In this document: piece after piece, positions 3,122 to 32,678 of the stretch
How the letters are laid out: every line of letters begins with the position of its first letter
How positions within the stretch are numbered: position 1 is the stretch's first letter
IMG/VR virus record: IMGVR_UViG_3300035670_000050
Coordinates: 1-64,000 of that record
DNA: 64,000 nt
Source: an uncultured virus (IMG/VR IMGVR_UViG_3300035670_000050)
Lineage: Duplodnaviria; Heunggongvirae; Uroviricota; Caudoviricetes
Direction: 5' to 3' (one strand)
The notes under the pieces: generated by a model
What the model was told of the DNA's origin: nothing
Databases searched by the model: none
What the model saw: only the letters and a program-made list of their open reading frames with translations
Position numbers and translations under genes: made by a program

Positions 3122-6013
3122 ATGACAACACAAGACTTTAGAATACCAAACAGAGCCACTGGAGTAGGAATTGCCAACACAAATATCAGTTTTGCAGACA
3201 TACAAACTGAATTTGGTGGTGCAAATCCAATAGGTTTAACTGAGTACTATTCGGGAGGCCCCTATGTCCCTACAGGTGTGAGTGGATATAGGGGTAATGT
3301 GCCTTCTAGTGGCGCAATTTCAGCACTTGATTTAGCAAGAGTTGATTTGGTTGGTATTTTCACAAGAAAATGGACTAGTTCAGCATCATTAGATACACCT
3401 GTTGGTGCGATTAATGATAATGGATTATTTTTCTTTAGTTCTACAATGTATGATACCAGTTTACAAGCATGGATGATGCCAACTGCCGTATTTGATCGTG
3501 ATGGACAAGAGTTATGGTCAATTAAGACAAATCTTAGTGGCGGTGGGGCTGGTACTACAAAATATATTCATACAACTTCTTTTAGTACTTCTAGTAATAA
3601 TTTTGTTGTTGGTGGTTATGATGAAAAAGCAAATACGAGTGATCGTGCTAGAGCATATCTGTTAGAATATGATGCTGGTTTTACGGATGTTCTTCATCGC
3701 CGTATACAACACAACACACTCTCTTTTAACAATGTTCACTGGACCAAAGATAAAAATAATGACGATGTTTATATGATTGCTACGCATGATGCAAGTGTAA
3801 ACGAACTTATTATTGTTAAATTTAATGGTCCAATTTCCAGTATTACTAGTTCATCTTCTATAGCTTGGGCAAGAAGATATCCATATAAGAATATAACTGG
3901 AAGTGTATTTTATCCAATACAAATTACTAAAATTAGTAGTTTCATTCATGAACCAGTTAGAAATCGTATATATGTGTCCATGATAGCAAATAATAACCCA
4001 ATATCAACTGGAGCTTTAAATAAGACTAGTGTATTAGTGATGGGTATTAATGCTGGAACTGGTGTAATTGAAAAATATGGTTTTGAATATCGTGGTGGAA
4101 CTTATCCGTCAACCACTTCAACTACTATTGATTATTATGAGATGGTACTGACTACTTCAGATTCAGAAGGTGCTGTTTATGGTAGTCAAGTTGAATATTT
4201 CAATAATGTTGATTTTTACACTGAAGCTTCTTATCATTGTAAATTTATGATGAATGGTTCTGGAGATCCTAATTCTACTGTTCGTGATGGTTATGAGATG
4301 TCAGCTGGATGGGTAGATGACACCACTTCATATGCTCAAACTTCTGGTCCTTTTTGGAGTCCTGAACCAAATACTTGGGATACCTTTAGAATACCAAAAG
4401 CGGCTTTTATTGTTGATGAAAATAGTCCAATACGTTTTACTGATGTTATATACAGAGAACCTGGTGATAATGGTCAAGTTTTGAATTTATTTTCTCAGTT
4501 ATTACAACCAGAAAATGAAACTTTACCAGTTACTGGTGGAAGAATAATTGTTGCGGATCTTAATGCTAAAAATACCACAGTTGGTGACGGTTCTGGACTT
4601 GCTAGTTGGTATGCAAGGGACAATACCTATACTGAAACCAATATGTTTTTAGATTTATATAATTATTGCTCGGCATTTCAACAGAGAACTAATAAGAAAA
4701 GAATTGGATTAGCTGCAACTTCTAAAACAAAAACTGGCACTAAAAATGATTTGATATTGACTATTATGCCAACATTAACAGAGATCGATTATTATCTCAC
4801 AAATGTTTGGTACCAAAAAGTTGGAGACCCTCCAAGATGGCCTGATCCACAAGCAAGATATGGTGATCAAATTTATGGTAATGTGACATATAAGACAATA
4901 TCAAACTATATGTATGATAGTGCTATAGTTTTGTATACGCCAAGTGGACTTACACAAAGAGAAGTAGAACCAGTTTATATGGATCCAAATGAATTTTCTG
5001 TGACACCAAGAACATGGTTGGGATGGTCTACTTCACAGGGTAATCCAATTACTAAGACAGCATCATATCCAAATACGACATATACTACGGCTCCTTCTTC
5101 ATCTACAAGTGAATACTATACAATAACTACAAATCAACAAGAATTGAATTTGAGAAATTGGTTGTTGGCACAAGGTTGGAATGGAGTTAACCCTGTATAT
5201 GTGACAGTCAATTCTGGTGTTTACATTTGGAGTGATAACACCTCTGTTCCAGCATTAACTATTGATGGTAATTTTCCAAACGGATTAGTGATAGAAAACT
5301 ATGGGTATATAATGGGTAGAGGAGGTAATGCTGGAAATGCTGGAAATGCTGTTCCTAGTCTTCAGAATGTTGCTGGTCAAAATGGTGGGCCAGCAATACT
5401 AACATCAGTTGAATTAAACATTAATAGTTCAAATGGATATATTGGAGGCGGTGGTGGAGGAGGTGCATCATATATAAACGACGTAAATGGCTATACCGTT
5501 GGTGGAGGCGGTGGTCAAGGTGGTGGTATTGGCGGAGTTGGTTATTTTTCTGGCAATTTTGCACAAGGTGGTGCTGGTGGATCAATTGGTAATTCTGGTG
5601 CAAACGGAACTGCCGTTTCTGGTCCAGATTTCAATATATTTGGAGGTGGCGGTGGCGGTAGAGTATTTCCTGGAGTTGGAGCTCCAGCAGTAACTAACCA
5701 ACAAGGTGGTGGTATTGGTGGAACAGGTGGAGGATCTGGTGCTTGTTCTTTAGCTTTTAACGTAACTCCCAAATCAAGTGGAGCCGGAGGTTCTGCTGGT
5801 GTAGCTGGAGGTAGTCCTTTGGTATACAAAAATGTTTATCCACACGGTGGTGCTGGAGGTGGTGGATTTGGTGCTGCTGGTGGGGGAATCTCTTTTAACA
5901 ACAGTGAAACACCAGCAAGTTCTGGTGGGCCATCTATACAAACAATTAACGGCGTTACAGTAACTTGGATTGGGGGTTTCCCAACTAATCGTGTTTTTGG
6001 AGCAGTAGTATGA
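3122..6013 (+). CDS. tail fibre/adhesin with gp38-like glycine-rich C-terminus
   Basis: IMGRGGNAG and repeated GGGGGG motifs as in T-even gp38 adhesins; CTAAATA late motif at 3086. Confidence 0.7.
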   Translation: MTTQDFRIPNRATGVGIANTNISFADIQTEFGGANPIGLTEYYSGGPYVPTGVSGYRGNVPSSGAISALDLARVDLVGIFTRKWTSSASLDTPVGAINDNGLFFFSSTMYDTSLQAWMMPTAVFDRDGQELWSIKTNLSGGGAGTTKYIHTTSFSTSSNNFVVGGYDEKANTSDRARAYLLEYDAGFTDVLHRRIQHNTLSFNNVHWTKDKNNDDVYMIATHDASVNELIIVKFNGPISSITSSSSIAWARRYPYKNITGSVFYPIQITKISSFIHEPVRNRIYVSMIANNNPISTGALNKTSVLVMGINAGTGVIEKYGFEYRGGTYPSTTSTTIDYYEMVLTTSDSEGAVYGSQVEYFNNVDFYTEASYHCKFMMNGSGDPNSTVRDGYEMSAGWVDDTTSYAQTSGPFWSPEPNTWDTFRIPKAAFIVDENSPIRFTDVIYREPGDNGQVLNLFSQLLQPENETLPVTGGRIIVADLNAKNTTVGDGSGLASWYARDNTYTETNMFLDLYNYCSAFQQRTNKKRIGLAATSKTKTGTKNDLILTIMPTLTEIDYYLTNVWYQKVGDPPRWPDPQARYGDQIYGNVTYKTISNYMYDSAIVLYTPSGLTQREVEPVYMDPNEFSVTPRTWLGWSTSQGNPITKTASYPNTTYTTAPSSSTSEYYTITTNQQELNLRNWLLAQGWNGVNPVYVTVNSGVYIWSDNTSVPALTIDGNFPNGLVIENYGYIMGRGGNAGNAGNAVPSLQNVAGQNGGPAILTSVELNINSSNGYIGGGGGGGASYINDVNGYTVGGGGGQGGGIGGVGYFSGNFAQGGAGGSIGNSGANGTAVSGPDFNIFGGGGGGRVFPGVGAPAVTNQQGGGIGGTGGGSGACSLAFNVTPKSSGAGGSAGVAGGSPLVYKNVYPHGGAGGGGFGAAGGGISFNNSETPASSGGPSIQTINGVTVTWIGGFPTNRVFGAVV

Positions 6014-6483: not shown

Positions 6484-6969
6484 ATGAGATTTTTTGCTAA
6501 AATAGATTCTAATGATAATGTATTGGAGTATCCAGTACCTGAAGGAATCTTGATTAAAGAGTATCCAGAGATAGCTAAAGTAGATGAAAATTTAGATAAA
6601 TTTTATGATGAAACTAAACCTTTGCCTAGTGGATATGTTTTAGTTCATCATTTACAAATAGAATATGATTGGATTGAATACGAATATAGTGAGGGTGTTC
6701 CAACTAAAGGTGATGATGGCAAATGGTATAAGAATCATGTTCCCACTCCACGATCTCCAGAGAGTAGACAAGAAATGCTCGATTATAAATCAAGTGAAGT
6801 GAGGAAGAAGAGAGACGAATTATTGGCAAAATCAGATTGGACTGTTATGCCGGATTCTCCTATTCCAGATGCCATTAAACAACAATGGATTGAATACCGA
6901 AAATTTTTAAGAGAAATACCTCAACAATCGGAATTCCCAAAGATAGTGAATTGGCCTATTCAACCGTAA
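6484..6969 (+). CDS. phage tail fibre assembly chaperone
   Basis: C-terminal RxxRDxLLxxSDWT...WxxYRxxLRxIPQQxxFPxxVxWP. Confidence 0.85.
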   Translation: MRFFAKIDSNDNVLEYPVPEGILIKEYPEIAKVDENLDKFYDETKPLPSGYVLVHHLQIEYDWIEYEYSEGVPTKGDDGKWYKNHVPTPRSPESRQEMLDYKSSEVRKKRDELLAKSDWTVMPDSPIPDAIKQQWIEYRKFLREIPQQSEFPKIVNWPIQP

Positions 6970-6998
6970 TTATTTTTGGCAAACATGAAAAAAGACGC

Positions 6999-7027
6999 TT
7001 GACTTTTACTAAATACAGTGATACACT
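6999..7027 (+). promoter_or_regulatory. sigma70 promoter of the tRNA array with nested late motif
   Basis: TTGACT-17-TACACT with extended TG; CTAAATA in the spacer. Confidence 0.7.
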
Positions 7028-7036
7028 TATAAAACT

Positions 7037-7153
7037 ATGAAAACTTCCTTACATTTCACTACAATTACTCTCAAGGCCAGTGCAACAGGCACATGGCAGG
7101 CAGAGTATCGCTCACCAAATTGCAATTTTAGTGATATTGGGGGGTTTGCGTAA
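7037..7153 (+). CDS. putative attenuator leader peptide (38 aa)
   Basis: MKTSLHFTTITLKASATGTWQAEYRSPNCNFSDIGGFA*; 3' end overlaps the antiterminator strand. Confidence 0.6.
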   Translation: MKTSLHFTTITLKASATGTWQAEYRSPNCNFSDIGGFA

Positions 7154-7177
7154 AAATAGTTTTAATCGTTTTTCACA

Positions 7178-7216
7178 CAAACCCCCGAACCTAAAAAATT
7201 CGGGGGTTTTTGTTTT
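7178..7216 (+). terminator. intrinsic terminator (attenuator)
   Basis: AAACCCCCGAA/TTCGGGGGTTT stem followed by a T-tract. Confidence 0.85.
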
Positions 7217-7217
7217 C

Positions 7218-7243
7218 CGCTCTTTAAAAATTTGTGTTGTTTA
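7218..7243 (+). promoter_or_regulatory. boxA-like antitermination site
   Basis: CGCTCTTTAAAAATTT resembles rrn boxA; 23-mer repeated at 7841-7863. Confidence 0.65.
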
Positions 7244-7245
7244 TT

Positions 7246-7323
7246 AGGGGATTAGCCAAGCTGGTCTAAGGCATCGGATTTTGAATCCGACATTCACTGG
7301 TTCGAATCCAGTATCCCCCACCA
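7246..7323 (+). tRNA. tRNA-Gln(UUG)
   Basis: Cloverleaf, TTG anticodon, encoded CCA. Confidence 0.9.
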
Positions 7324-7325
7324 AT

Positions 7326-7420
7326 CCTTGGATAGTTTAATGGTAAAACTCCGAGCTTATACCTCGGCGATGCCTCTAGATGAGGGGATGATCTAGGTTC
7401 GAATCCTAGTCCAAGGACCA
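7326..7420 (+). tRNA. tRNA-Ile(UAU) with long variable arm
   Basis: CCGAG-CT TAT AC-CTCGG anticodon arm; ~25-nt variable region; CCA. Confidence 0.75.
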
Positions 7421-7493
7421 TATGAAAGCACATTGTAGGGGTTGCTCCCGCACAAGATACCATGGCTCTACTTGGCAATGTGTTTCCATATGG
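7418..7493 (+). ncRNA. inverted-repeat clamp element 1
   Basis: CCATATGAAAGCACATTG...CAATGTGTTTCCATATGG. Confidence 0.65.
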
Positions 7494-7583
7494 AAGTGTG
7501 GCAGAGTCCGGTTTATTGCAACAGTCTTGAAAACTGTCGGTCATGAAAGTGGCCCGTGAGTTCGAATCTCACCGCTTCCACCA
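7492..7583 (+). tRNA. tRNA-Ser(UGA)
   Basis: Class II cloverleaf, CCA. Confidence 0.92.
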
Positions 7584-7587
7584 ATTC

Positions 7588-7677
7588 GGAGAATGGGCAG
7601 GATGGTAATGCAGCGGATTGCTAATCCGTAGATTCTAGAAATAGGGTCACAGGGTTCGACTCCCTGATTCTCCACCA
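7588..7677 (+). tRNA. tRNA-Ser(GCU)
   Basis: Class II cloverleaf, CCA. Confidence 0.92.
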
Positions 7678-7682
7678 GTTAT

Positions 7683-7760
7683 AGTACGGTACCAGAGCGG
7701 TCTAATGGCGGAGCCTGCAAAACTCTTGATTCGTCGGTTCGAATCCGACCCGTACTTCCA
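7683..7760 (+). tRNA. tRNA-Cys(GCA)
   Basis: GCA anticodon, U73 discriminator, CCA. Confidence 0.88.
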
Positions 7761-7763
7761 CTC

Positions 7764-7816
7764 TGTTGTTTTTTTACAACAGTAGTAGTTGACAATTCGT
7801 AGGTTTAGTGTATAAT
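7764..7816 (+). promoter_or_regulatory. early promoter cassette driving the second tRNA block
   Basis: TGTTG-N8-CAACA; TTGACA-16-TATAAT. Confidence 0.8.
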
Positions 7817-7837
7817 GATCTACATGATGTGATGAAT

Positions 7838-7863
7838 TGTTCTTTAAAAATTTGTGTTGTTTA
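7838..7863 (+). promoter_or_regulatory. boxA-like antitermination site
   Basis: TGTTCTTTAAAAATTTGTGTTGTTTA. Confidence 0.65.
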
Positions 7864-7866
7864 CTT

Positions 7867-7943
7867 GCACCGTTCGTCTAGCGGCCTAGGACATCTCCCT
7901 TTCACGGAGAAGATCAGGGGTTCAAATCCCCTACGGTGTACCA
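7867..7943 (+). tRNA. tRNA-Glu(UUC)
   Basis: Cloverleaf, CCA. Confidence 0.92.
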
Positions 7944-7948
7944 AATAC

Positions 7949-8036
7949 GGGTGGTGCCCCGGTCAGCGGTCTGTAAAACCGTCGGCATAATAAGATCGGA
8001 AGTTGCCTCGTGGAGCGTTACCATCACCACCCACCA
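7949..8036 (+). tRNA. atypical tRNA-Tyr(GUA)-like RNA (8/4 fold, vestigial D arm)
   Basis: 8-bp acceptor GGGTGGTG/CACCACCC; GCGGT-CT GTA AA-ACCGT arm; long variable region; ACCA end. Confidence 0.6.
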
Positions 8037-8125
8037 TATTGAAGCGCATTGACGAGTCCGACTAGGCATCGGAAACAGCAGCGGGTGTCTTCCGTATCTG
8101 CTTCGACCAGTGTGTTTCAATATGG
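8034..8125 (+). ncRNA. inverted-repeat clamp element 2
   Basis: CCATATTGAAGCGCATTG...CAGTGTGTTTCAATATGG. Confidence 0.65.
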
Positions 8126-8245
8126 TAGTAGGGCAGGTATGAAGCCGGTCATTGGTCCTCTGAGAGATTGGTGACTCTAGAGCAAGCCAACTACAAGGCC
8201 TTAATCCCGGTGCTCTGCAGTGGATCGCAACCACTCCTGCTACCA
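8124..8245 (+). ncRNA. tRNA-like RNA (acceptor stem + T arm, large insert)
   Basis: GGTAGTAGG/CCTGCTACC stem; AGTGG-ATCGCAA-CCACT T-like arm. Confidence 0.5.
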
Positions 8246-8247
8246 TA

Positions 8248-8326
8248 CCATACTGAAGTGCATTTGGGTGAAGCTCTGAAAGGCTATGCTCGAGTAGGGT
8301 AGTAGTCTAAGTGCGCTTCAATATGG
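8248..8326 (+). ncRNA. inverted-repeat clamp element 3
   Basis: CCATACTGAAGTGCATTT...AAGTGCGCTTCAATATGG. Confidence 0.65.
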
Positions 8327-8338
8327 TAAAGTTTATTT

Positions 8339-8424
8339 GGGCTTCTGGTGTTTGCTGGGGGCACGACTCTGAGTAGAGCAATCGAAAAGAGAAAGCGTTG
8401 GTTCGATTCCAACGAAGCCCACCA
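8339..8424 (+). ncRNA. tRNA-like RNA with aberrant anticodon arm
   Basis: GGGCTTC/GAAGCCC acceptor, D arm, canonical GTTCGATTC T arm, ACCA; no 7-nt anticodon loop. Confidence 0.6.
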
Positions 8425-8528
8425 TATTCAAGCACATTCTTAGTCGCCCGGCCCAGCCATTGGGGCTGCCAGCGGGGACCCGTAAGGGATACTAACAGAA
8501 AGTCTACAACGAGTGTGCTTGAATATGG
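8422..8528 (+). ncRNA. inverted-repeat clamp element 4
   Basis: CCATATTCAAGCACATT...AGTGTGCTTGAATATGG. Confidence 0.65.
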
Positions 8529-8674
8529 GAGTAAGTGGGGACCGAAAAGTCCTCGGGCTGATCCCAGAACACGAATACCTGAAGCGTGTATAAAGGCGGC
8601 GAGCCTTTGACGAAGACACAGGCGTGATTCGAGCGACAATGACGATACGATTGTGCTGGAGTCGTAACCAGCAA

Positions 8675-8782
8675 CCATATTGAAGCACACTAAGGCTAGA
8701 TGGCGCCGGCCTTGGGAGTGGACCTAGCATCGTCTTTCGGCGGTGTGGGCAGTTTCGATACTGTCAGTGTGCTTCAATATGG
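8675..8782 (+). ncRNA. inverted-repeat clamp element 5
   Basis: Perfect 17-bp IR CCATATTGAAGCACACT/AGTGTGCTTCAATATGG. Confidence 0.7.
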
Positions 8783-8941
8783 TTTGCTGACTGCTAGTAG
8801 ATGAAACGCCTAATGGCAAAGTAATCTAAGTTAGATGGTGTGTCAAGATGTTTCCCATTGACTCTCGACGATGGGAATGGCTGAATAGGTAGAGAGCAAT
8901 AAAGCCCGACACATTGGCCCGACGGACGGGAACAAGCAACA

Positions 8942-9004
8942 CCATATTCGAACACATTACTAAGAGTCCAGGTTCAGAGCGTGGCATAGTGTGTTTCAAT
9001 ATGG
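8942..9004 (+). ncRNA. inverted-repeat clamp element 6
   Basis: CCATATTCGAACACATTA...TAGTGTGTTTCAATATGG. Confidence 0.65.
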
Positions 9005-9078
9005 GGAGTTAGTTCAGTTGGGAGAACGCCTGCTTTGCAAGCAGGAGGTCATCGGTTCGAACCCGATACTCTCCACCA
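9003..9078 (+). tRNA. tRNA-Ala(UGC)
   Basis: G3.U70 pair, TGC anticodon, CCA. Confidence 0.95.
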
Positions 9079-9191
9079 AGATGCACAGCGTCGCTTTACG
9101 CTGTGGCAGAATGTGCCTCTCGATCCTAGGAACGATGCCTCTCAAACTGCGACTAGAGTCCTATTGCAAGTAGGACATAGCACCAAATTTT

Positions 9192-9266
9192 GGGCGTATA
9201 GCTTAGGGGTTAAAGCAGTAGACTTTTAATCTATTGACCGGAGTTCGATTCTCCGTGCGCCTACCA
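9192..9266 (+). tRNA. tRNA-Lys(UUU)
   Basis: Cloverleaf, CCA. Confidence 0.92.
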
Positions 9267-9273
9267 GTTTTAT

Positions 9274-9348
9274 GGTTCCATAGTATATCGGCGAGTATAG
9301 CGCCCTGTCACGGCGCAGGAACGAGTTCGAATCTCGTTGGGACCGCCA
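9274..9348 (+). tRNA. tRNA-Asp(GUC)
   Basis: Cloverleaf, G73, CCA. Confidence 0.92.
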
Positions 9349-9353
9349 AGTTT

Positions 9354-9427
9354 TGCGGGTTAGAGAAATAGTATCTCGGTAGTCTCATAAGCTACAGTTA
9401 GTCGTGCAATTCGGCTACCCGCTACCA
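9354..9427 (+). tRNA. tRNA-Met(CAU), initiator-like, divergent
   Basis: CAT anticodon, 1x72 mismatch, atypical T loop. Confidence 0.7.
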
Positions 9428-9622
9428 AACGTGCCGTCTAATCAACGGCTAGTGTGGTCCGCATGTCGAGAAGTGGTGTGATACCCACAGGACCTTACCA
9501 TTTGGAGCAAATGGCGCTGGCAATGCGAGAATTCTCTTTGGTCGTGAAGTGGGTGGAAGGTGTCGTTGAAGGGTTCGAAACTGGAGACACTATAATTACC
9601 ACCGCAGAGAGGAAGCACCTGT

Positions 9623-9697
9623 TCCAGAGTAGATCAGCGGTAGATCAGCGGACTGTTAATCCGTGTGTCGTAGGTTCGATCCCTACCTCTGGAGCCA
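9623..9697 (+). tRNA. tRNA-Asn(GUU)
   Basis: Cloverleaf, CCA. Confidence 0.92.
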
Positions 9698-9866
9698 TTA
9701 GTGAGAGTCTGTAGAACGAAGTGCCTAACCAGCAGCCAGACTATCGTGGTAGTACTCATCTTTGCATGAATCCACGCCGTTGGTGCGAGACTTGTGGTGA
9801 GTCTAAGGGATGCAGAGAGGACTGAAAAGTGTCCTTAAACAGATATGATAGTACTCTCACTAATGG
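9695..9866 (+). ncRNA. unknown structured RNA closed by a 14-bp stem
   Basis: CCATTAGTGAGAGT...ACTCTCACTAATGG between two tRNAs. Confidence 0.55.
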
Positions 9867-9941
9867 CGATGTAGCATAGCGGTCAAATGCAGTTCCTTCA
9901 TACGGAAAAGATCGAAGGCTCGAATCCTTCCATCGCCACCA
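9865..9941 (+). tRNA. tRNA-Met(CAU), elongator
   Basis: Cloverleaf, CAT anticodon, CCA. Confidence 0.85.
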
Positions 9942-9946
9942 GTTTT

Positions 9947-10021
9947 GCCCCTGTAGCTCAGTGGTAGAGTTCTCGCCTTGTAAGCGAGCGGTCGGGAGTT
10001 CAAATCTCTCCGGGGGCACCA
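9947..10021 (+). tRNA. tRNA-Thr(UGU)
   Basis: Cloverleaf, CCA. Confidence 0.92.
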
Positions 10022-10030
10022 AAGTTTCGT

Positions 10031-10107
10031 CTGGGTATAGCACAGCCAGGTAGTGCGCCTGCTTTGGGAGCAGGAGGTCGGGAGTTCGATCCTCTCTACC
10101 CAGACCA
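10031..10107 (+). tRNA. tRNA-Pro(UGG)
   Basis: Cloverleaf, CCA. Confidence 0.92.
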
Positions 10108-10114
10108 TAATTAT

Positions 10115-10189
10115 ACCACCTTAGTGTACTGAATAGCACGCAATGCTACGGACATTGTAGAAAGGGTTTGATTCCTTTAGGTGGTGCCA
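10115..10189 (+). tRNA. tRNA-Arg(ACG)
   Basis: CAATG-CT ACG GA-CATTG arm, CCA. Confidence 0.85.
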
Positions 10190-10191
10190 AT

Positions 10192-10265
10192 CCTTCCTTA
10201 GCTCAATGGCAGAGCAAGCGGTTGATAACCGCTAGACGGTGGATCGTAACCATCAGGAAGGACCA
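10192..10265 (+). tRNA. tRNA-Ile(GAU)
   Basis: Cloverleaf, variant T loop ATCGTAA, CCA. Confidence 0.85.
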
Positions 10266-10282
10266 TTATAAGTAGTTTTAAT

Positions 10283-10356
10283 CTCGGTGTCGTATAAAGG
10301 CATTACGCTGGTCTCCAAAACCAGTCATGGCAGTTCGATTCTGTCCACCGAGGCCA
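10283..10356 (+). tRNA. tRNA-Trp(CCA)
   Basis: Cloverleaf, CCA. Confidence 0.9.
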
Positions 10357-10370
10357 ATTAAGGAGATATC

Positions 10371-10838
10371 ATGTTCAAGATAAATTTACAAGAAGTGAAA
10401 GATTACATCTCAAGACAATCGCCAGAAACAAAAATTTATCTTGGATGTGATTCTGAAAGATTAAGAGTGAATGAAGTGTGGCATGCTGACTATATAATTG
10501 CTATAGTTGTTCACAAAGATGGAAAACACGGTTGCAAACTTTTTGGTGAAGTTGTTCGTGAAAGAGACTATGACCAAAAAGAAGATCGTCCGAGATACCG
10601 TTTGATGAATGAAGTATACAAGGTATCTGAAATGTATTTAAAGTTGGCTGATGTTCTGGAAGGTCGTGATGTAGAAGTCCACCTTGATATCAACCCAAGT
10701 GAAATGCATGGTTCAAATTGCGTGATCAATGAAGCAATTGGTTATATTCGTGGAACTTGTAATGTAATTCCTATGGTAAAACCAAGAGCGTTTGCGGCAT
10801 CATACGCTGCAGATCGTTACAAAAGTTTAGCTGCTTAA
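10371..10838 (+). CDS. RNase H-like YkuK-family protein
   Basis: IYLGCDS...RLMNEV...EVHLDIN...A(S)YAAD motifs. Confidence 0.75.
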   Translation: MFKINLQEVKDYISRQSPETKIYLGCDSERLRVNEVWHADYIIAIVVHKDGKHGCKLFGEVVRERDYDQKEDRPRYRLMNEVYKVSEMYLKLADVLEGRDVEVHLDINPSEMHGSNCVINEAIGYIRGTCNVIPMVKPRAFAASYAADRYKSLAA

Positions 10839-10847
10839 GGAGAAAAT

Positions 10848-11156
10848 ATGATTAAGAAAATGTTACAAAAACTTGGCATGTCAGTAGAAGGTGATATGCT
10901 CGGATCAATCACAGAGTTTGCTGGAACTAGAGGTGTTCGTACTTGGGCACCTTGTAGTGGTCAAATCATGCAAGTAAAAGGAAACGAAGCACTCTTTTCC
11001 ATTATTGGTACAAAGTATGGCGGTGATGGTAGAACGACATTTGCGCTACCTGATCTAAGGCCTCTTGATAAGAATGGTAAAGTAATTGAATGGAGAGATT
11101 ATTCTGGTCCGATGAAAATGATTTGTATTCAAGGCGGTTATCCACCTTGGGATTAA
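10848..11156 (+). CDS. phage tail collar domain protein
   Basis: GSITEFAG...CSGQ...ALFSIIGTKYGGDGRTTFALPDLR. Confidence 0.85.
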   Translation: MIKKMLQKLGMSVEGDMLGSITEFAGTRGVRTWAPCSGQIMQVKGNEALFSIIGTKYGGDGRTTFALPDLRPLDKNGKVIEWRDYSGPMKMICIQGGYPPWD

Positions 11157-11161
11157 AATAA

Positions 11162-11235
11162 GCGGCTGTAGTTTAATGGTAAAACCACTGCCTTCCAAGC
11201 AGAAGTTAAGAGTTCGATTCTCTTTAGCCGCTCCA
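11162..11235 (+). tRNA. tRNA-Gly(UCC)
   Basis: Cloverleaf, U73, CCA. Confidence 0.92.
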
Positions 11236-11244
11236 AATGCTCTT

Positions 11245-11320
11245 GGTGTCCTTAGTGTAGTGGTCTGCACTTCTTGCTGTGAACGAGAGAGTATGAGTTC
11301 GATCCTCATAGGACACCCCA
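11245..11320 (+). tRNA. tRNA-His(GUG)
   Basis: G-1:C73 pair, GTG anticodon, CCA. Confidence 0.88.
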
Positions 11321-11321
11321 C

Positions 11322-11396
11322 GCATCGTTAGCTCAATAGTAGAGCGTCTGCCTTACAAGCAGAGGGTAGAGGGAGCGTAACCTTCACGGTGCACCA
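11322..11396 (+). tRNA. tRNA-Val(UAC)
   Basis: Cloverleaf, variant T loop AGCGTAA, CCA. Confidence 0.85.
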
Positions 11397-11397
11397 T

Positions 11398-11473
11398 GCG
11401 ACTTTAGCTGATGTGGTCATAGCAGTGGCCTGAAGAGCCATGGAAAGAGGTTCGATTCCTCTAGGTCGCACCA
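11398..11473 (+). tRNA. tRNA-Phe(GAA)
   Basis: Cloverleaf, CCA. Confidence 0.9.
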
Positions 11474-11475
11474 AT

Positions 11476-11552
11476 GCCTCGGTGATGAAATTGGTAAACA
11501 TGCTTGCCTTAGAAGCAAGATTCTGAGAGTTCGAATCTCTCCTGAGGCACCA
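11476..11552 (+). tRNA. tRNA-Leu(UAG) lacking the long variable arm
   Basis: Leu-type D arm, TAG anticodon, short variable loop. Confidence 0.85.
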
Positions 11553-11597
11553 ATATTACCTGTAAACAACACAAATTTATGTTATAATGTTTTTATT

Positions 11598-11680
11598 GCG
11601 AGTGTGGTGGAACGGTATACACAGCAGACTTAAAATTTGCCGCCTCTGGATTGAGGGTTCGAATCCCTCCACTCGCACCA
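11598..11680 (+). tRNA. tRNA-Leu(UAA)
   Basis: Class II cloverleaf, CCA; TGnTATAAT at 11580-11588 upstream. Confidence 0.92.
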
Positions 11681-11685
11681 AATAT

Positions 11686-11760
11686 ACCACTGTCGTTCAA
11701 CGGATAGGACATGGGTCTTCTAAACCTAGAATAGGGGTTCGATTCCTCTCAGTGGTGCCA
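11686..11760 (+). tRNA. tRNA-Arg(UCU)
   Basis: Cloverleaf, CCA. Confidence 0.9.
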
Positions 11761-11771
11761 TAAATACTTAT

Positions 11772-12164
11772 ATGAAGAAAATTATTGTAAACGGTACATT
11801 TGATATATTACATGTTGGTCATTTAGAGCTCCTAAACTTTGCGAGAAGTTTGGGAGATTTTCTTTTGGTTTGCATCGATACGGATCGTCGAGTGAAAGAA
11901 CTAAAGGGTTCTGAAAGACCAATAAATAATCAGTATGAAAGAAAAATGATGTTGGAAAACCTCAAGGCTGTAGATGAGGTAAGATTGTTTGATAGTAAAG
12001 AAGAATTGATTGACTTCATCAAAGAATGTGATATAATGGTGAAAGGTTCTGATTATAGAGGTAAGAGTATTACAGGTGAAAAATATTGTAAACAGGTGAT
12101 TTATTTTGATCGAATTGAAGAATATTCCACAACAAAAAAAATTCAAGATATTATTAGTCGGTGA
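11772..12164 (+). CDS. hldC: heptose-1-phosphate adenylyltransferase (RfaE domain II/HldC-like)
   Basis: NGTFDILHVGH (HxGH), KGxxRPIN, KGSDY, YSTT. Confidence 0.85.
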   Translation: MKKIIVNGTFDILHVGHLELLNFARSLGDFLLVCIDTDRRVKELKGSERPINNQYERKMMLENLKAVDEVRLFDSKEELIDFIKECDIMVKGSDYRGKSITGEKYCKQVIYFDRIEEYSTTKKIQDIISR

Positions 12165-12864
12165 TACTTGTATTGATATCTATCAGTACGGTAATGTCAC
12201 TAAACTAAGTCCTGAAGCTCCAGTACCAATTTTTGTTCCAGAAAAACAAGAATTAAAATTAGGTATGGCTTCTAATGTTGGCAATAATCTATTGGCATTG
12301 AATTGTGATGTCGATATGGTAGTTGGCGCACTTTCTAAGAAAACAAGACTCATTGATCTCAAAAGTAATCAGCACCTTTTACGCATAGATGAAGATGTTG
12401 AATCAAAAGAACTTACTTTAAACTTGAAAGATAAAAAATATGACGCCATTGTGTTTTCTGACTACAACAAGGGATGTGTTTCTTATGGACTTATCGAACA
12501 GACAAGACAAGAACAAACTTGCCCAATATTCATTGATACTAAAAAGACAGAACTTTCTAGATTCGAAGGCTGTTTTGTTAAAATCAACAGCAGAGAATAT
12601 CAACAGGCAAAGTCATATTGTTCTGACTTGATTGTTACTCTTGGTGACAAAGGTGCTACATATAAAAACAAATTCTTTAGTGCAAAGCCTGTAGAAGTGT
12701 CTGATGTATGTGGTGCAGGTGATACTTTTCTTGCAGCATTGGTATATAACTATCTGCTAACAAATCATGTAGGTTCTGCAATAGAGTTTGCAAACAAAGC
12801 ATCATCAATTACTGTTCAACATATGGGTGTGTATGCACCGACATTGGATGAGATATGCGATTAG
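12106..12864 (+). CDS. hldA: heptose-7-phosphate kinase (RfaE domain I/HldA-like, PfkB family)
   Basis: LSPEAPVP, SDYNKG, DVCGAGDTF. Confidence 0.88.
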   Translation: MIELKNIPQQKKFKILLVGDTCIDIYQYGNVTKLSPEAPVPIFVPEKQELKLGMASNVGNNLLALNCDVDMVVGALSKKTRLIDLKSNQHLLRIDEDVESKELTLNLKDKKYDAIVFSDYNKGCVSYGLIEQTRQEQTCPIFIDTKKTELSRFEGCFVKINSREYQQAKSYCSDLIVTLGDKGATYKNKFFSAKPVEVSDVCGAGDTFLAALVYNYLLTNHVGSAIEFANKASSITVQHMGVYAPTLDEICD

Positions 12865-31586: not shown

Positions 31587-31611
31587 CAAAATAAATAGTT
31601 TCTGTTATAGT
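31583..31611 (+). promoter_or_regulatory. tmRNA promoter
   Basis: TTGACA-17-TATAGT; ATAAATA in spacer. Confidence 0.75.
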
Positions 31612-31617
31612 AGTAAT

Positions 31618-31950
31618 ATGATCGTATGAAGTTAATTGAAAGGTGTTCTGGACGAGGGTTCGATTCCCTCCAGGTCCACCAGAAAGCATACTATGAAGAT
31701 CGGTCAAGGACTGCCGGTAGGCTGCATAATAGCAGATAGCCCCGACTGAAAAAGTGCAGATTTAGTATGCTTCCTAATGGGCCTGACCTGGTTTCGACAG
31801 GGCAAAGAGTAGAAAGATGGACGATCCGACACAGAGAGTCGTAAAAAGTAAATAAAATAAACGCAAACGATGAGCGTTTCGCTTTAGCTGCCTAAGGCAT
31901 GCTGAGCTGAGGTTTCGCCGACTGTACCTTATCACCCAATCAGTCGGCAC
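31618..31950 (+). ncRNA. ssrA: circularly permuted (two-piece) tmRNA, tag ANDERFALAA
   Basis: 3' tRNA-like part GGACGAGGGTTCGATTCCCTCCAGGTCCACCA ends 31681 and precedes 5' part GGGCCTGACCTGGTTTCGAC at 31779; G3.U70; tag 31863-31895. Confidence 0.92.
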
Positions 31951-31973
31951 TTATTTTTTTATGGGAAAACATT

Positions 31974-32678
31974 GTGAAAGTATACATCAGCAAATATCGT
32001 AATCATTGGTTGTCTCCATATACAATTTTGACCAAAATTTGTTTTTGGGAAAAAGACAAAGACATCATCTATAATCTTGATGACGATCCAAAAAACAAGT
32101 ACGAGAAGTTTGTCAATCTTCTGAATCCTGTTTGTGTTGGGTTTCAGAAGTTTCTTGATTTTGTTCATCCAAGAATTGAGTATGTCAAGATTGACAAGTA
32201 CGACACTTGGAACATGGATACAACATTGTCTCCAATCATCCTGCCAATGCTCAAGCAGTTGAAAAAGACTAAGCATGGTTCTCCTATGGTAGACTTAGAG
32301 GATGTACCAGAACATCTTCGTTGCATCACACATGAAGAATATGATGCACAAGAAACTTTTGATTTCTATAAGCAAGACGAACCAAAAGAAAGTCATTGTG
32401 ATATTCATGCACGATGGGAATGGGTTCTTGATGAAATGATTTGGGCATTTGAACAGTTATGTAACGATGACTATGATGCACAATTCCATACTGGTGTACA
32501 TGATATGAAGTCTGTACCTTGCGAGTGGGATGAGAATGGTAAACCAACTCTTTATACTTTTGAGAGGGGACCAAATCACACCGCAGAGTTTGATCGTGAA
32601 GGTTACGAAAAGTACAATGAACGAATCAATAACGGTACAAGACTGTTTGGTAAGTACTACAGAAATCTGTGGGACTAA
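31974..32678 (+). CDS. conserved phage hypothetical protein
   Basis: DTWNMDxTL...RWEWVLDEMIWAFE...LFGKYYRNLWD. Confidence 0.8.
   Translation: MKVYISKYRNHWLSPYTILTKICFWEKDKDIIYNLDDDPKNKYEKFVNLLNPVCVGFQKFLDFVHPRIEYVKIDKYDTWNMDTTLSPIILPMLKQLKKTKHGSPMVDLEDVPEHLRCITHEEYDAQETFDFYKQDEPKESHCDIHARWEWVLDEMIWAFEQLCNDDYDAQFHTGVHDMKSVPCEWDENGKPTLYTFERGPNHTAEFDREGYEKYNERINNGTRLFGKYYRNLWD

What the first reader, a model, noticed from the sequence alone, without database searches (positions are those of the whole stretch)
7418..9004. Family of 17-bp inverted-repeat clamps carrying unrelated cargo RNAs between tRNAs
Seen: six elements (7418-7493, 8034-8125, 8248-8326, 8422-8528, 8675-8782, 8942-9004) share CCATATTGAAGCACAYT at the left and its reverse complement at the right. 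There are G.U pairs and a compensatory change (TTCAAG/CTTGAA in element 4). Interiors are ~27-75 nt, GC-rich and mutually unrelated. Each element starts with CCA, often the CCA end of the upstream tRNA or tRNA-like RNA, and ends in TGG, often the 5' GG of the next one. Inference: tRNA maturation enzymes would release small RNAs with a common stem and variable loops. This would be a modular small-RNA array whose constant stem is a protein-binding or RNase III-type handle. The cargos could be decoys or antitoxin mimics against RNA-sensing defences, or guides. Alternatively the repeats pair around the tRNA-like units as processing stalks.
Basis: partly seen in the sequence, partly recalled or inferred. 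Interest (0 to 1): 0.85.

Follow-up and report, generated by a model that had tools for sequence, protein, structure and literature searches.

The report
Conserved hairpin modules in phage tRNA arrays
A phage's cluster of tRNA genes is punctuated by copies of one conserved RNA hairpin stem that encloses very different inner sequences; the same stem recurs in many uncultured phages and one cultured one, matches no described RNA family, and its job is still unknown.

Summary
Six elements sit at the stated coordinates (12 arm matches plus one stray, against 0.39 expected). All lie on the tRNA strand.

The family is widespread. 65 of 123 sources examined hold paired arms, and 55 of the 56 sources with tRNAs do. 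A variant occurs in the cultured Synechococcus phage BUCT-ZZ01. It is almost absent from about 185,000 prokaryote genomes.

It is an RNA helix. On the tRNA strand there are 153 G.U pairs against 12 A.C mismatches. 13 of 18 pairs show changes on both sides. The arms pair around the cargo, not around the tRNA-like units.

The stem starts at the ACCA end of the upstream tRNA or tRNA-like RNA. Cargos are very diverse (82 clusters among 100), and 8 of 100 match tRNA T-arm regions.

Population contigs show modules gained or lost at the arms.

There is no Rfam match, and no phage Ro, RNase III, Nop or integrase gene. The DUF458/YkuK gene is optional.

Best reading, at about 0.45: a processing hairpin cut by host nucleases, which also shuffles cassettes. 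This is a new RNA motif whose function is untested.

The parts
7418..7493 (+). Clamp element 1: variant arms CCATATGAAAGCACATT / AATGTGTTTCCATATGG with a 42-nt interior. It lies between tRNA-Ile(UAU) and tRNA-Ser(UGA).
   Evidence: 50.1 bits on +, 38.0 on -
8034..8125 (+). Clamp element 2: 58-nt interior, three G.U pairs. It follows the tRNA-Tyr-like unit.
   Evidence: 56.9 bits
8248..8326 (+). Clamp element 3: 45-nt interior.
   Evidence: 50.4 bits
8422..8528 (+). Clamp element 4: 73-nt interior, with the compensated G8>C / C>G change.
   Evidence: 54.7 bits
8675..8782 (+). Clamp element 5: perfect consensus arms and a 74-nt interior. The same cargo is the only clamp between the Tyr-like unit and tRNA-Ala in relative L035.
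   Evidence: 56.0 bits
8942..9004 (+). Clamp element 6: 29-nt interior. This cargo type is also found in L033. The last GG is the 5' end of tRNA-Ala.
   Evidence: 52.9 bits
7949..8036 (+). Unit U1: a tRNA-Tyr-derived, non-canonical unit. It has the GUA anticodon arm, no normal D-arm, and ends ACCA, which runs into clamp 2.
   Evidence: alignment with phage tRNA-Tyr genes. Not called by ARAGORN or Rfam. Tyr is the only amino acid missing from the ARAGORN list.
8126..8247 (+). Unit U2: a non-tRNA or tRNA-like unit between clamps 2 and 3, with a terminal stem and a T-arm-like hairpin.
   Evidence: fold; no Rfam match
8339..8424 (+). Unit U3: a weak tRNA-like gene whose CCA is the start of clamp 4.
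   Evidence: RF00005, 31.9 bits, 8339-8421
8529..8674 (+). Unit U4: a conserved non-tRNA RNA unit ending GCAA-CCA. It recurs in five other loci with compensatory changes.
8783..8941 (+). Unit U5: a non-tRNA unit between clamps 5 and 6. It is absent, together with clamp 6's left arm and cargo, in a population variant.
   Evidence: joint 8772>8995
7789..7816 (+). Consensus sigma-70-type promoter (TTGACA, 16 nt, TATAAT; 12 of 12) upstream of tRNA-Glu, U1 and clamps 2-6.
7246..11760 (+). The tRNA array (24 ARAGORN tRNAs) in which the clamps lie.
10371..10838 (+). DUF458/YkuK-like (Pfam RNaseH_like) gene embedded in the array. It is a frequent neighbour but not an obligatory one.

Best explanation
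The clamp is a transcribed RNA hairpin module that belongs to phage tRNA arrays.

Shown:
- An 18-bp helix forms on the tRNA strand. It is the discriminator A plus CCAUAUUGAAGCACAYU, paired with AGUGUGYUUCAAUAUGG plus U.
- The helix uses the ACCA 3' end of the upstream tRNA or tRNA-like RNA as its first four pairs.
- It encloses a 25-130-nt GC-rich interior.
- Elements evolve by compensatory change, and modules are exchanged at the arms.

Inferred:
- In the polycistronic precursor the helix is a punctuation and processing site for host endonucleases. No phage nuclease is shared by the clamp-bearing genomes.
- A dsRNA cut by RNase III near the middle of the roughly 20-bp helix would split it. 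One part is an A/U-rich outer 10-bp half that can melt, freeing the CCA trailer of the upstream RNA and the 5' leader of the downstream RNA for RNase E, exonucleases and RNase P. The other part is an inner 7-9-bp half that stays on the cargo as a stem-capped small RNA.
- A cut just after CCA is an alternative. E. coli RNase E does this when it removes the hairpin behind the proline tRNAs.
- In the few cargos that carry a T-arm exactly 5 nt before the right arm, the inner 7 bp lie where an acceptor stem would. RNase P and RNase Z could then cut at the same outer/inner boundary.

As a DNA-level by-product, or a second function, the near-identical arms are portable homology. Through them, tRNA and small-RNA cassettes are gained, lost and moved between unrelated phages.
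For: 1. RNA-level helix on the tRNA strand.
- 100 unique elements were oriented by neighbouring tRNAs. They give 1522 Watson-Crick pairs, 153 G.U pairs, 12 A.C and 13 other mismatches.
- 97.3% of cells are paired and 13 of 18 pairs change on both sides. 0 of 500 shuffles reach this. Controls with the partner slid by 1-3 columns give 29-49% paired.
- The covariance model scores the tRNA strand higher at every copy.

2. The arms pair around the cargo. Mismatch is 1.5%, against 6.5% for the neighbouring-arm alternative.

3. Link to tRNA ends.
- 35 of 100 left arms share their CCA with an ARAGORN tRNA, of 13 isoacceptor types.
- The base before the left arm is A in 78 of 100. The base after the right arm is T in 87 of 100.
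- 8 of 100 right arms give their GG to the next tRNA.

4. Helix span has a median of 20 bp (range 17-25), and 54 of 100 reach 20 bp or more. Duplex energy is -10.7 kcal/mol for the outer 10 bp and -9.5 for the inner 7 bp.

5. The segment is transcribed from a consensus sigma-70 promoter.

6. No shared phage factor was found.
- Four very different clamp-bearing genomes (GC 0.34-0.45, 98-400 kb) were compared. Only 5 open reading frames of the window's record have matches in all three other genomes. Two of the five were put to Pfam: a FEN/RNase H-type exonuclease and a cell-wall hydrolase. The other three were not annotated.
- Those four genomes and BUCT-ZZ01 all lack RNase III, tyrosine-integrase and Nop genes.
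- No TROVE/Ro gene was found in 6 records: the window's own record, G001, G002, G004, G018 and BUCT-ZZ01.

7. Precedent: E. coli RNase E removes a whole hairpin by cutting just after CCA (PMC5291269, abstract read).

8. Module exchange.
- Relative L035 has one clamp, with the cargo of element 5, where the window has five clamps and four units.
- Population contigs join left arm 2 to left arm 3 (8045>8260, side 45) and right arm 5 to right arm 6 (8772>8995, side 84).
- 11 of 13 multi-member cargo clusters sit in different flanks.
Against: No RNA ends were seen. No RNA run holds the region, so cleavage and release are inference only.

RNase III needs shape, not sequence. Yet positions 3-6, 10, 15 and 17 are almost invariant. 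ACCA/UGGU explains only part of that. Sequence-specific recognition or gene conversion is therefore also needed.

46 of 100 helices span under 20 bp.

A helix that hides the CCA end could hinder 3' maturation rather than help it.

Cargos alone are not more structured than shuffles. The median z is -0.36, and only 9 of 100 fall below -2. This suits filler loops as well as functional small RNAs.

In 59 of 100 elements neither side directly abuts an ARAGORN-called tRNA, although many of these flanks look tRNA-like.
Confidence: 0.45

Rival explanations
1. The stem is a handle for a sequence-specific RNA-binding protein. The constant stem would be bound by a host or phage protein that stabilises, presents or loads the variable cargos. 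This is a scaffold for a fast-changing repertoire of small RNAs, including tRNA mimics that could act as decoys for tRNA-targeting defences.
For: - Stem sequence is near invariant while cargos are unrelated: 82 clusters among 100.
- G.U pairs recur at fixed positions: position 11 in 45 of 100 and position 16 in 74 of 100.
- 11 of 100 cargos carry a T-loop-like motif and 8 of 100 match tRNA T-arm regions, against 0 for reversed controls. Some of these cargos fold like a cloverleaf.
- One cargo family shows a compensated stem change, GCUG/CAGC to GCCG/CGGC.
- The same cargo recurs in different phages.
Against: - No candidate protein is shared by clamp-bearing genomes.
- No Ro/TROVE and no Nop.
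- DUF458 is absent from two complete clamp-bearing genomes.
- Cargos alone show no excess structure.
- No cargo has an antisense match of 12 nt or more in the phage record.
Confidence: 0.2
2. It is mainly a DNA-level module. The arms would be portable homology or a selfish miniature element that spreads between phage tRNA arrays. The RNA hairpin would only be tolerated, kept pairable so that it does not disturb tRNA processing.
For: - Deletion and insertion joints in natural populations lie in the arms.
- L035 against the window differs by whole modules.
- Identical cargo occurs with different flanks, for example L010_2914 and L039_3001.
- Near-identical arms occur in four unrelated genome types.
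- The flanking A...T extends the inverted repeat.
Against: - The strand asymmetry, 153 G.U against 12 A.C on the tRNA strand, and the compensatory changes show selection on one strand's fold.
- No transposase-like or integrase gene is shared.
- Interiors are unrelated, unlike copies of one miniature inverted-repeat transposable element (MITE).
- There is no clear target-site duplication, since the A/T flank is itself palindromic.
Confidence: 0.2
3. The arms are processing stalks around the tRNA-like units. The right arm of one element would pair with the left arm of the next, enclosing the unit between them, as in rRNA processing stalks.
For: Neighbouring arms are still 93.5% complementary, so this fold is possible as an alternative conformer.
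Against: - Own-arm pairing has fewer mismatches in 33 of 51 comparisons, equal in 17 and more in 1.
- Variant positions are compensated within an element, not between neighbours.
- Many elements are single in their array: L035 has one and BUCT-ZZ01's copies are dispersed.
Confidence: 0.05

Closest known systems
Hairpin directly behind the CCA of E. coli proK/proL/proM tRNAs, removed in one step by RNase E (PMC5291269, abstract read)
   Same: A stem-loop sits directly 3' of an encoded CCA. An endonuclease cut at the CCA releases the mature tRNA end and a hairpin fragment.
   Different: Those hairpins are Rho-independent terminators at the end of a transcript. They have no shared sequence. The clamps lack a U-tract, are internal to arrays, include the ACCA itself in the helix, and share a conserved stem with variable interiors.
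RNase III processing stalks and excised intervening sequences of bacterial rRNA operons (recalled, not looked up)
   Same: A double-stranded helix of about 20 bp in a stable-RNA precursor, with a variable distal part and sporadic distribution. It would be cut without re-ligation.
   Different: Those helices are not conserved in sequence across hosts and are not tied to the CCA ends of tRNAs. Cleavage of the clamps is untested.
T4 stable RNAs species 1 and 2 (rnaC, rnaD) in the T4 tRNA cluster
   Same: They are non-tRNA small RNAs co-encoded at a T4-type tRNA cluster. rnaC carries a tRNA-type T-arm, as do some clamp cargos and units. Their function is also unknown.
   Different: There is no clamp stem. 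The covariance model finds nothing in the T4 tRNA region. T4 has two fixed RNAs, not a repeated module.
Bacterial Y RNAs (YrlA) bound by Ro/Rsr (Rfam RF02553; architecture recalled)
   Same: A terminal stem made by the 5' and 3' ends carries a variable or tRNA-like domain.
   Different: YrlA gave no match on the clamps at E up to 1 or 0.5. Its only listed match, at E 0.27 in L010, lies over ordinary tRNAs. No TROVE/Ro gene was found in 6 records. Only about one cargo in ten is tRNA-like.
Integron attC sites
   Same: An imperfect inverted repeat of 59-164 bp with a variable centre follows each cassette in an array. The fold is strand-specific.
   Different: No tyrosine recombinase was found in 5 genomes. 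The arms end in ATATGG, not the GTTRRRY box, as read from the sequence. Joints occur in left arms as well as right arms.
TIGR-Tas stem-loop arrays (PMC12045711; passages read)
   Same: Phage-borne arrays of hairpin-flanked small RNA units processed by an unknown host RNase.
   Different: In TIGR arrays the stems vary and the inner box C/D motifs and short spacers are regular. Here the stem is constant and the interiors are irregular. No Nop-domain protein was found in 5 genomes.

Membership tests
Any Rfam 15 family | Covariance-model match over the element | tested here: not met
   window 6500-12500, E up to 1; 7 loci, E up to 0.5. Only tRNAs and chance-level hits were found, none on a clamp.
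Y RNA / YrlA with Ro (Rsr) | Match to RF02553 or RF00019 | tested here: not met
   The only YrlA hit has E 0.27 and lies over ordinary tRNAs in L010.
Y RNA / YrlA with Ro (Rsr) | Ro/TROVE protein gene in the same genome | tested here: not met
   It is found in 0 of 6 records (G000, G001, G002, G004, G018, BUCT-ZZ01). A host Rsr cannot be excluded.
Y RNA / YrlA with Ro (Rsr) | Terminal stem plus a tRNA-like domain | tested here: inconclusive
   The stem is always present. A T-arm or tRNA-like interior occurs in only 8-11 of 100.
RNase III processing helix | Uninterrupted dsRNA of about two turns (20 bp or more) | tested here: inconclusive
   The median is 20 bp. 54 of 100 reach 20 bp or more and 46 of 100 are 17-19 bp.
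RNase III processing helix | Staggered cleavage by RNase III in vivo or in vitro | not testable with these tools
   No RNA run holds the region.
Integron attC | IntI-type tyrosine recombinase | tested here: not met
   It is found in 0 of 5 genomes, while the control rings in 14 of 14 cellular genomes.
Integron attC | Imperfect inverted repeat with a variable centre after each cassette | tested here: met
CRISPR or TIGR array | Regularly spaced repeats with uniform short spacers | tested here: not met
   Arms alternate in orientation. Interiors are 25-130 nt and the units between clamps in the window are about 95-160 nt.
CRISPR or TIGR array | Associated Tas (Nop-domain) protein | tested here: not met
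   It is found in 0 of 5 genomes. Divergent Tas proteins could escape the Pfam model.
Miniature inverted-repeat transposable element (MITE) | Terminal inverted repeats | tested here: met
Miniature inverted-repeat transposable element (MITE) | Copies share a related interior, and arm mismatches are strand-neutral | tested here: not met
   There are 82 cargo clusters among 100 elements. There are 153 G.U against 12 A.C on the tRNA strand.
Intrinsic terminator | G+C-rich stem followed by a U-tract | tested here: not met
   One search finds no terminator-like site at any clamp. The right arm is followed by U and then mixed bases.
T4 species 1/2 RNA | Sequence or structure likeness to rnaC or rnaD | tested here: not met
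   Model R1 finds nothing in the T4 tRNA region L224. Only the location and a T-arm are shared.

The most novel reading that the evidence does not exclude
Phage tRNA arrays would carry a horizontally shuffled RNA cassette system. One conserved clamp stem would serve as a universal processing and stabilising handle. Through it, unrelated phages would express and exchange a fast-evolving repertoire of small RNAs. These would include acceptor-extended tRNA mimics that act as decoys or inhibitors of host tRNA-targeting defences or tRNA-modifying toxins.
Probability: 0.15. Interest if true: 0.9.

Novelty: new variant of a known kind. Interest (0 to 1): 0.7.

Why it matters
Phage tRNA arrays are usually annotated as tRNAs plus junk spacers. 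Here the spacers hold a strongly supported RNA motif. It is shared by at least 65 of the sources examined (IMG/VR loci and the window). The records include T4-like phages, two jumbo phages and a 98-kb phage. One cultured cyanophage also carries a variant. The motif lies beside other conserved non-tRNA units.

If the stem is a processing handle, it shows how long mixed tRNA and small-RNA precursors are punctuated in phages. It would also be a natural counterpart of engineered tRNA-flanked RNA arrays.

If the cargos are active RNAs, this is a large untapped pool of phage small RNAs.

The arms also mark the breakpoints by which tRNA cassettes move between phages. That bears on how phages tune their tRNA sets.

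BUCT-ZZ01 on Synechococcus elongatus PCC 7942 makes all of this testable at the bench.

Tried and rejected
- RNA evidence. No RNA holder was listed for window 7200-9300, so expression and RNA ends could not be examined.
- Exact-arm BLAST of two arm variants against 50,697 GenBank phage records gave only chance hits of 16-17 nt inside coding genes. The BUCT-ZZ01 variant was found only through the DUF458 neighbour and a repeat scan.
- BLAST of the BUCT-ZZ01 clamp found no other cultured phage with it. The other hits cover only the tmRNA part.
- Prokaryote genomes. 47 pattern hits is about the chance level. Only L131 has full arms (1 mismatch each). L134 and L151 have more divergent arms (5/3 and 3/4 mismatches). 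L131 and L134 are short contigs dense in tRNA genes binned into metagenome-assembled genomes, and L151 has no tRNA.
- Guide or antisense idea. No cargo matches 12 nt or more elsewhere in the 120-kb record. The non-tRNA units reach at most 13-17 nt at E 0.06 or above, which is chance level.
- Candidate partners were sought and not found: TROVE/Ro, RNase III, Nop/Tas and tyrosine recombinase. DUF458 is only facultative.
- Hammerhead-like and kink-turn-like readings of the GCCGAAC...GAUGAGU cargo family were considered by eye and dropped. The motif order and spacing do not fit and Rfam gives no hit.
- Terminator reading: no U-tract.
- Literature. A full-text search for the arm sequences gave three unrelated primer hits. 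Word searches gave nothing that describes this motif. BUCT-ZZ01 appears in one review only (listing seen).
Full report
**Setting**

The window is the first 64 kb of a 120-kb IMG/VR virus record with estimated completeness 68%. Its genes are of the T4 type: gp32, the gp59 loader, T4 RNase H, a gp38-type adhesin and a tail-fibre chaperone. The nearest gp32 proteins are about 55% identical. They belong to Pelagibacter phage HTVC008M and marine or freshwater cyanomyoviruses, so there is no close cultured relative. DNA runs that hold the stretch are labelled freshwater, lake and subsurface metagenomes.

On the + strand, 7246-11760 is a tRNA array of 24 genes. One more tRNA and a permuted tmRNA lie further on. 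A consensus sigma-70-type promoter (12 of 12) lies at 7789-7816, just upstream of the segment with clamps 2-6.

- The 17-mer occurs 13 times at 3 mismatches or fewer, against 0.39 expected. Twelve are the six left and six right arms at the stated coordinates.
- There are none elsewhere in the record.
- Each pair closes a hairpin, with z from -2.9 to -5.9.
- Interiors are 29-74 nt with GC 0.49-0.60, against a record GC of 0.344. They are unrelated to each other.

**It is a widespread family, specific to phages**

I examined 123 sources: those loci plus the first 14 kb of the window.

- 65 hold a left arm followed by a right arm.
- 55 of the 56 sources that have tRNAs hold one.
- 57 sources have neither arms nor tRNAs; these are the chance hits.

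Removing identical sequences left 100 unique elements in tRNA-bearing loci, and all later counts use these. Ten further loci with an element but no called tRNA were left out because they could not be oriented. Most of them hold only about 600 bases.

The bearers are diverse. The window's record has GC 0.34. The others compared are two complete jumbo genomes (343 kb at GC 0.45 and 400 kb at GC 0.37) and a complete 98-kb genome (GC 0.40). Only 5 open reading frames of the window's record have matches in all three other genomes.

In one genome per 185,579 prokaryote species, a paired-arm pattern gave 47 hits, about the chance number. Only L131 has full arms, and L134 and L151 have more divergent ones. 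L131 and L134 are short contigs packed with tRNA genes that were binned into metagenome-assembled genomes, and L151 has no tRNA.

Exact arms are absent from 50,697 GenBank phage records. However, the cultured freshwater Synechococcus phage BUCT-ZZ01 has variant clamps. One has 21-bp perfect arms, AACCATATTAAAGCATGCTTG. It lies just upstream of the acceptor piece of its permuted tmRNA. Another has both arms changed alike and lies just upstream of tRNA-Ile. The model finds two more. T4 and Stenotrophomonas phage DLP6 have none.

**It is an RNA helix around the interior**

- Oriented by the neighbouring tRNAs, the 1700 arm pairs are 1522 Watson-Crick, 153 G.U, 12 A.C and 13 other. The opposite strand would carry the 153 as mismatches.
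- G.U recurs at fixed places: position 11 in 45 of 100 and position 16 in 74 of 100.
- Positions 7, 8, 9, 11-14 and 16 covary.
- A 46-sequence alignment was taken from 46 of the 82 cargo clusters, choosing interiors of 74 nt or less. On it, 97.3% of cells pair and 13 of 18 pairs change on both sides. No shuffle in 500 reaches any of the five measures, and slid controls pair at 29-49%.
It is better in only 1 of 51 comparisons.
- A covariance model built from the alignment scores the tRNA strand higher at every copy. It finds exactly six copies in the window.

**Anatomy**

- The base before the left arm is A in 78 of 100, and the base after the right arm is T in 87 of 100. That adds an 18th pair.
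- In 35 of 100 the left arm's CCA is the CCA of an ARAGORN tRNA, of 13 isoacceptor types. Many other upstream flanks look like tRNA 3' ends by eye.
- 8 of 100 right arms give their GG to the next tRNA.
- The helix therefore hides the ACCA end of the upstream RNA.
- The whole helix spans 17-25 bp with a median of 20.
- The outer ten pairs are almost invariant. ACCA/UGGU accounts for four of the eleven pairs counting the flanking A-U. The inner seven pairs vary and covary.

Cargos fall into 82 clusters, of which 69 are singletons. Their GC has a median of 0.51 against 0.41 for their loci. Taken alone they fold no better than shuffles, with a median z of -0.36.

11 cargos carry a T-loop-like motif. 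In five elements (four distinct cargos) it lies exactly 5 nt before the right arm, so the inner seven pairs sit where an acceptor stem would (my index there is one too low, corrected by reading the sequences). 8 of 100 match tRNA T-arm regions, against 0 for reversed controls. Several fold like a cloverleaf on a long stem.

**Modules move**

- Relative L035 has the same tRNA-Tyr-like unit, then one clamp with the cargo of element 5 (one change), then tRNA-Ala. The window has five clamps and four units in that place.
- 11 of 13 multi-member cargo clusters have members with different flanks.
- Contigs from four DNA runs of four studies show three joints: 8045>8260 (left arm 2 to left arm 3, side 45, two runs), 8772>8995 (right arm 5 to right arm 6, side 84) and 8331>8674 (side 57, two runs). 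Joints with sides of about 20 nt are probably other phages' clamps and were not used.

**What it is not**

- No Rfam family matches.
- It is not a terminator.
- Ro/TROVE, RNase III, Nop and tyrosine-recombinase genes are absent from the genomes tested.
- The embedded DUF458/YkuK gene is frequent, in 14 of 28 records and within 3 kb of the clamp in 10 loci. It is missing from both complete jumbo genomes. It is present in the clamp-free array of DLP6.
- No cargo has an antisense match of 12 nt or more in the record.

**Mechanism**

These points are shown:
- the fold;
- its strand;
- its tie to ACCA ends;
- its covariation;
- its modular exchange.

The role is inferred. I take it to be a punctuation and processing hairpin read by host nucleases. 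RNase III in mid-helix fits the span of about 20 bp. It also fits the split into an A/U-rich outer half and a more variable inner half. A cut just after CCA has a precedent in E. coli RNase E (PMC5291269, abstract). I recall an RNase E preference that the CCA-UAUU context would fit, but I did not check it. RNase P or RNase Z could serve the tRNA-like cargos.

The invariant stem positions are not explained by RNase III alone. That keeps a sequence-specific binder and a DNA-level recombination role alive as rivals.

**Novelty**

No described family or paper was found. The evidence is the Rfam, the sequence-term search, and the word searches, for which I saw listings only. I file it as a new variant of a known kind: a processing hairpin or stem-capped small RNA. 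The cassette-system reading is the boldest one not excluded.

Noticed in passing
window 7326-7420: tRNA-Ile(UAU) of 95 nt with a long variable arm. The same odd form occurs in L036 3828-3922 and L013 255-349. A 92-nt tRNA-Ile-TAT is annotated in Stenotrophomonas phage DLP6.
   Followed up: no
window 8529-8674 (unit U4): A conserved non-tRNA RNA unit ending GCAA-CCA recurs in L056, L019, L024, L026 and L052. It comes in two subtypes with compensated stem changes, for example GCCGG/CCGGC against GCTGG/CCAGC. No Rfam match.
   Followed up: partly
window 31589-31986; L179 about 5100-5483: Both the window's phage and BUCT-ZZ01 encode a permuted (two-piece) tmRNA, with tags ANDERFALAA and ANDETFSMALAA. 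In BUCT-ZZ01 a clamp lies directly upstream of the acceptor piece.
   Followed up: partly
window 7219-7245 and 7841-7866: A leader of about 24 nt (tctttaaaaatttgtgttgttta) is repeated just before the first tRNA of each of two transcription units. The second repeat follows the consensus promoter at 7789-7816.
   Followed up: no
window 10371-10838: A DUF458/YkuK (Pfam RNaseH_like) gene lies inside the tRNA array. Homologues also lie inside tRNA arrays of other phages, DLP6 for example. They occur in 76 GenBank phage records.
   Followed up: partly
window 7949-8036: A tRNA-Tyr-derived unit keeps the GUA anticodon arm and ACCA end but has no normal D-arm and an odd T-arm. It is identical in L035. 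Tyr is the only amino acid without a canonical tRNA in this array.
   Followed up: partly
L037 1-180; L033 4555-4748: There is a partial GOLLD RNA match (71.7 bits, cut by the locus end). There is also a group I intron match (53.4 bits) beside clamp-bearing tRNA arrays.
   Followed up: no
L036 4215-4289; L179 3943-4018: ARAGORN calls a tRNA with a four-base anticodon (acca) in L036. In BUCT-ZZ01 it calls a tRNA with anticodon CUA, of amber-suppressor type. DLP6 is annotated with tRNA-Sup-CTA.
   Followed up: no
window 9079-9191, 9428-9622, 9698-9864: Further gaps of 110-195 nt between tRNAs hold no clamp and have no Rfam match above chance. A hit to Ocean-VII at 9798-9840 has E 0.22. They may hold other small RNAs.
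   Followed up: no
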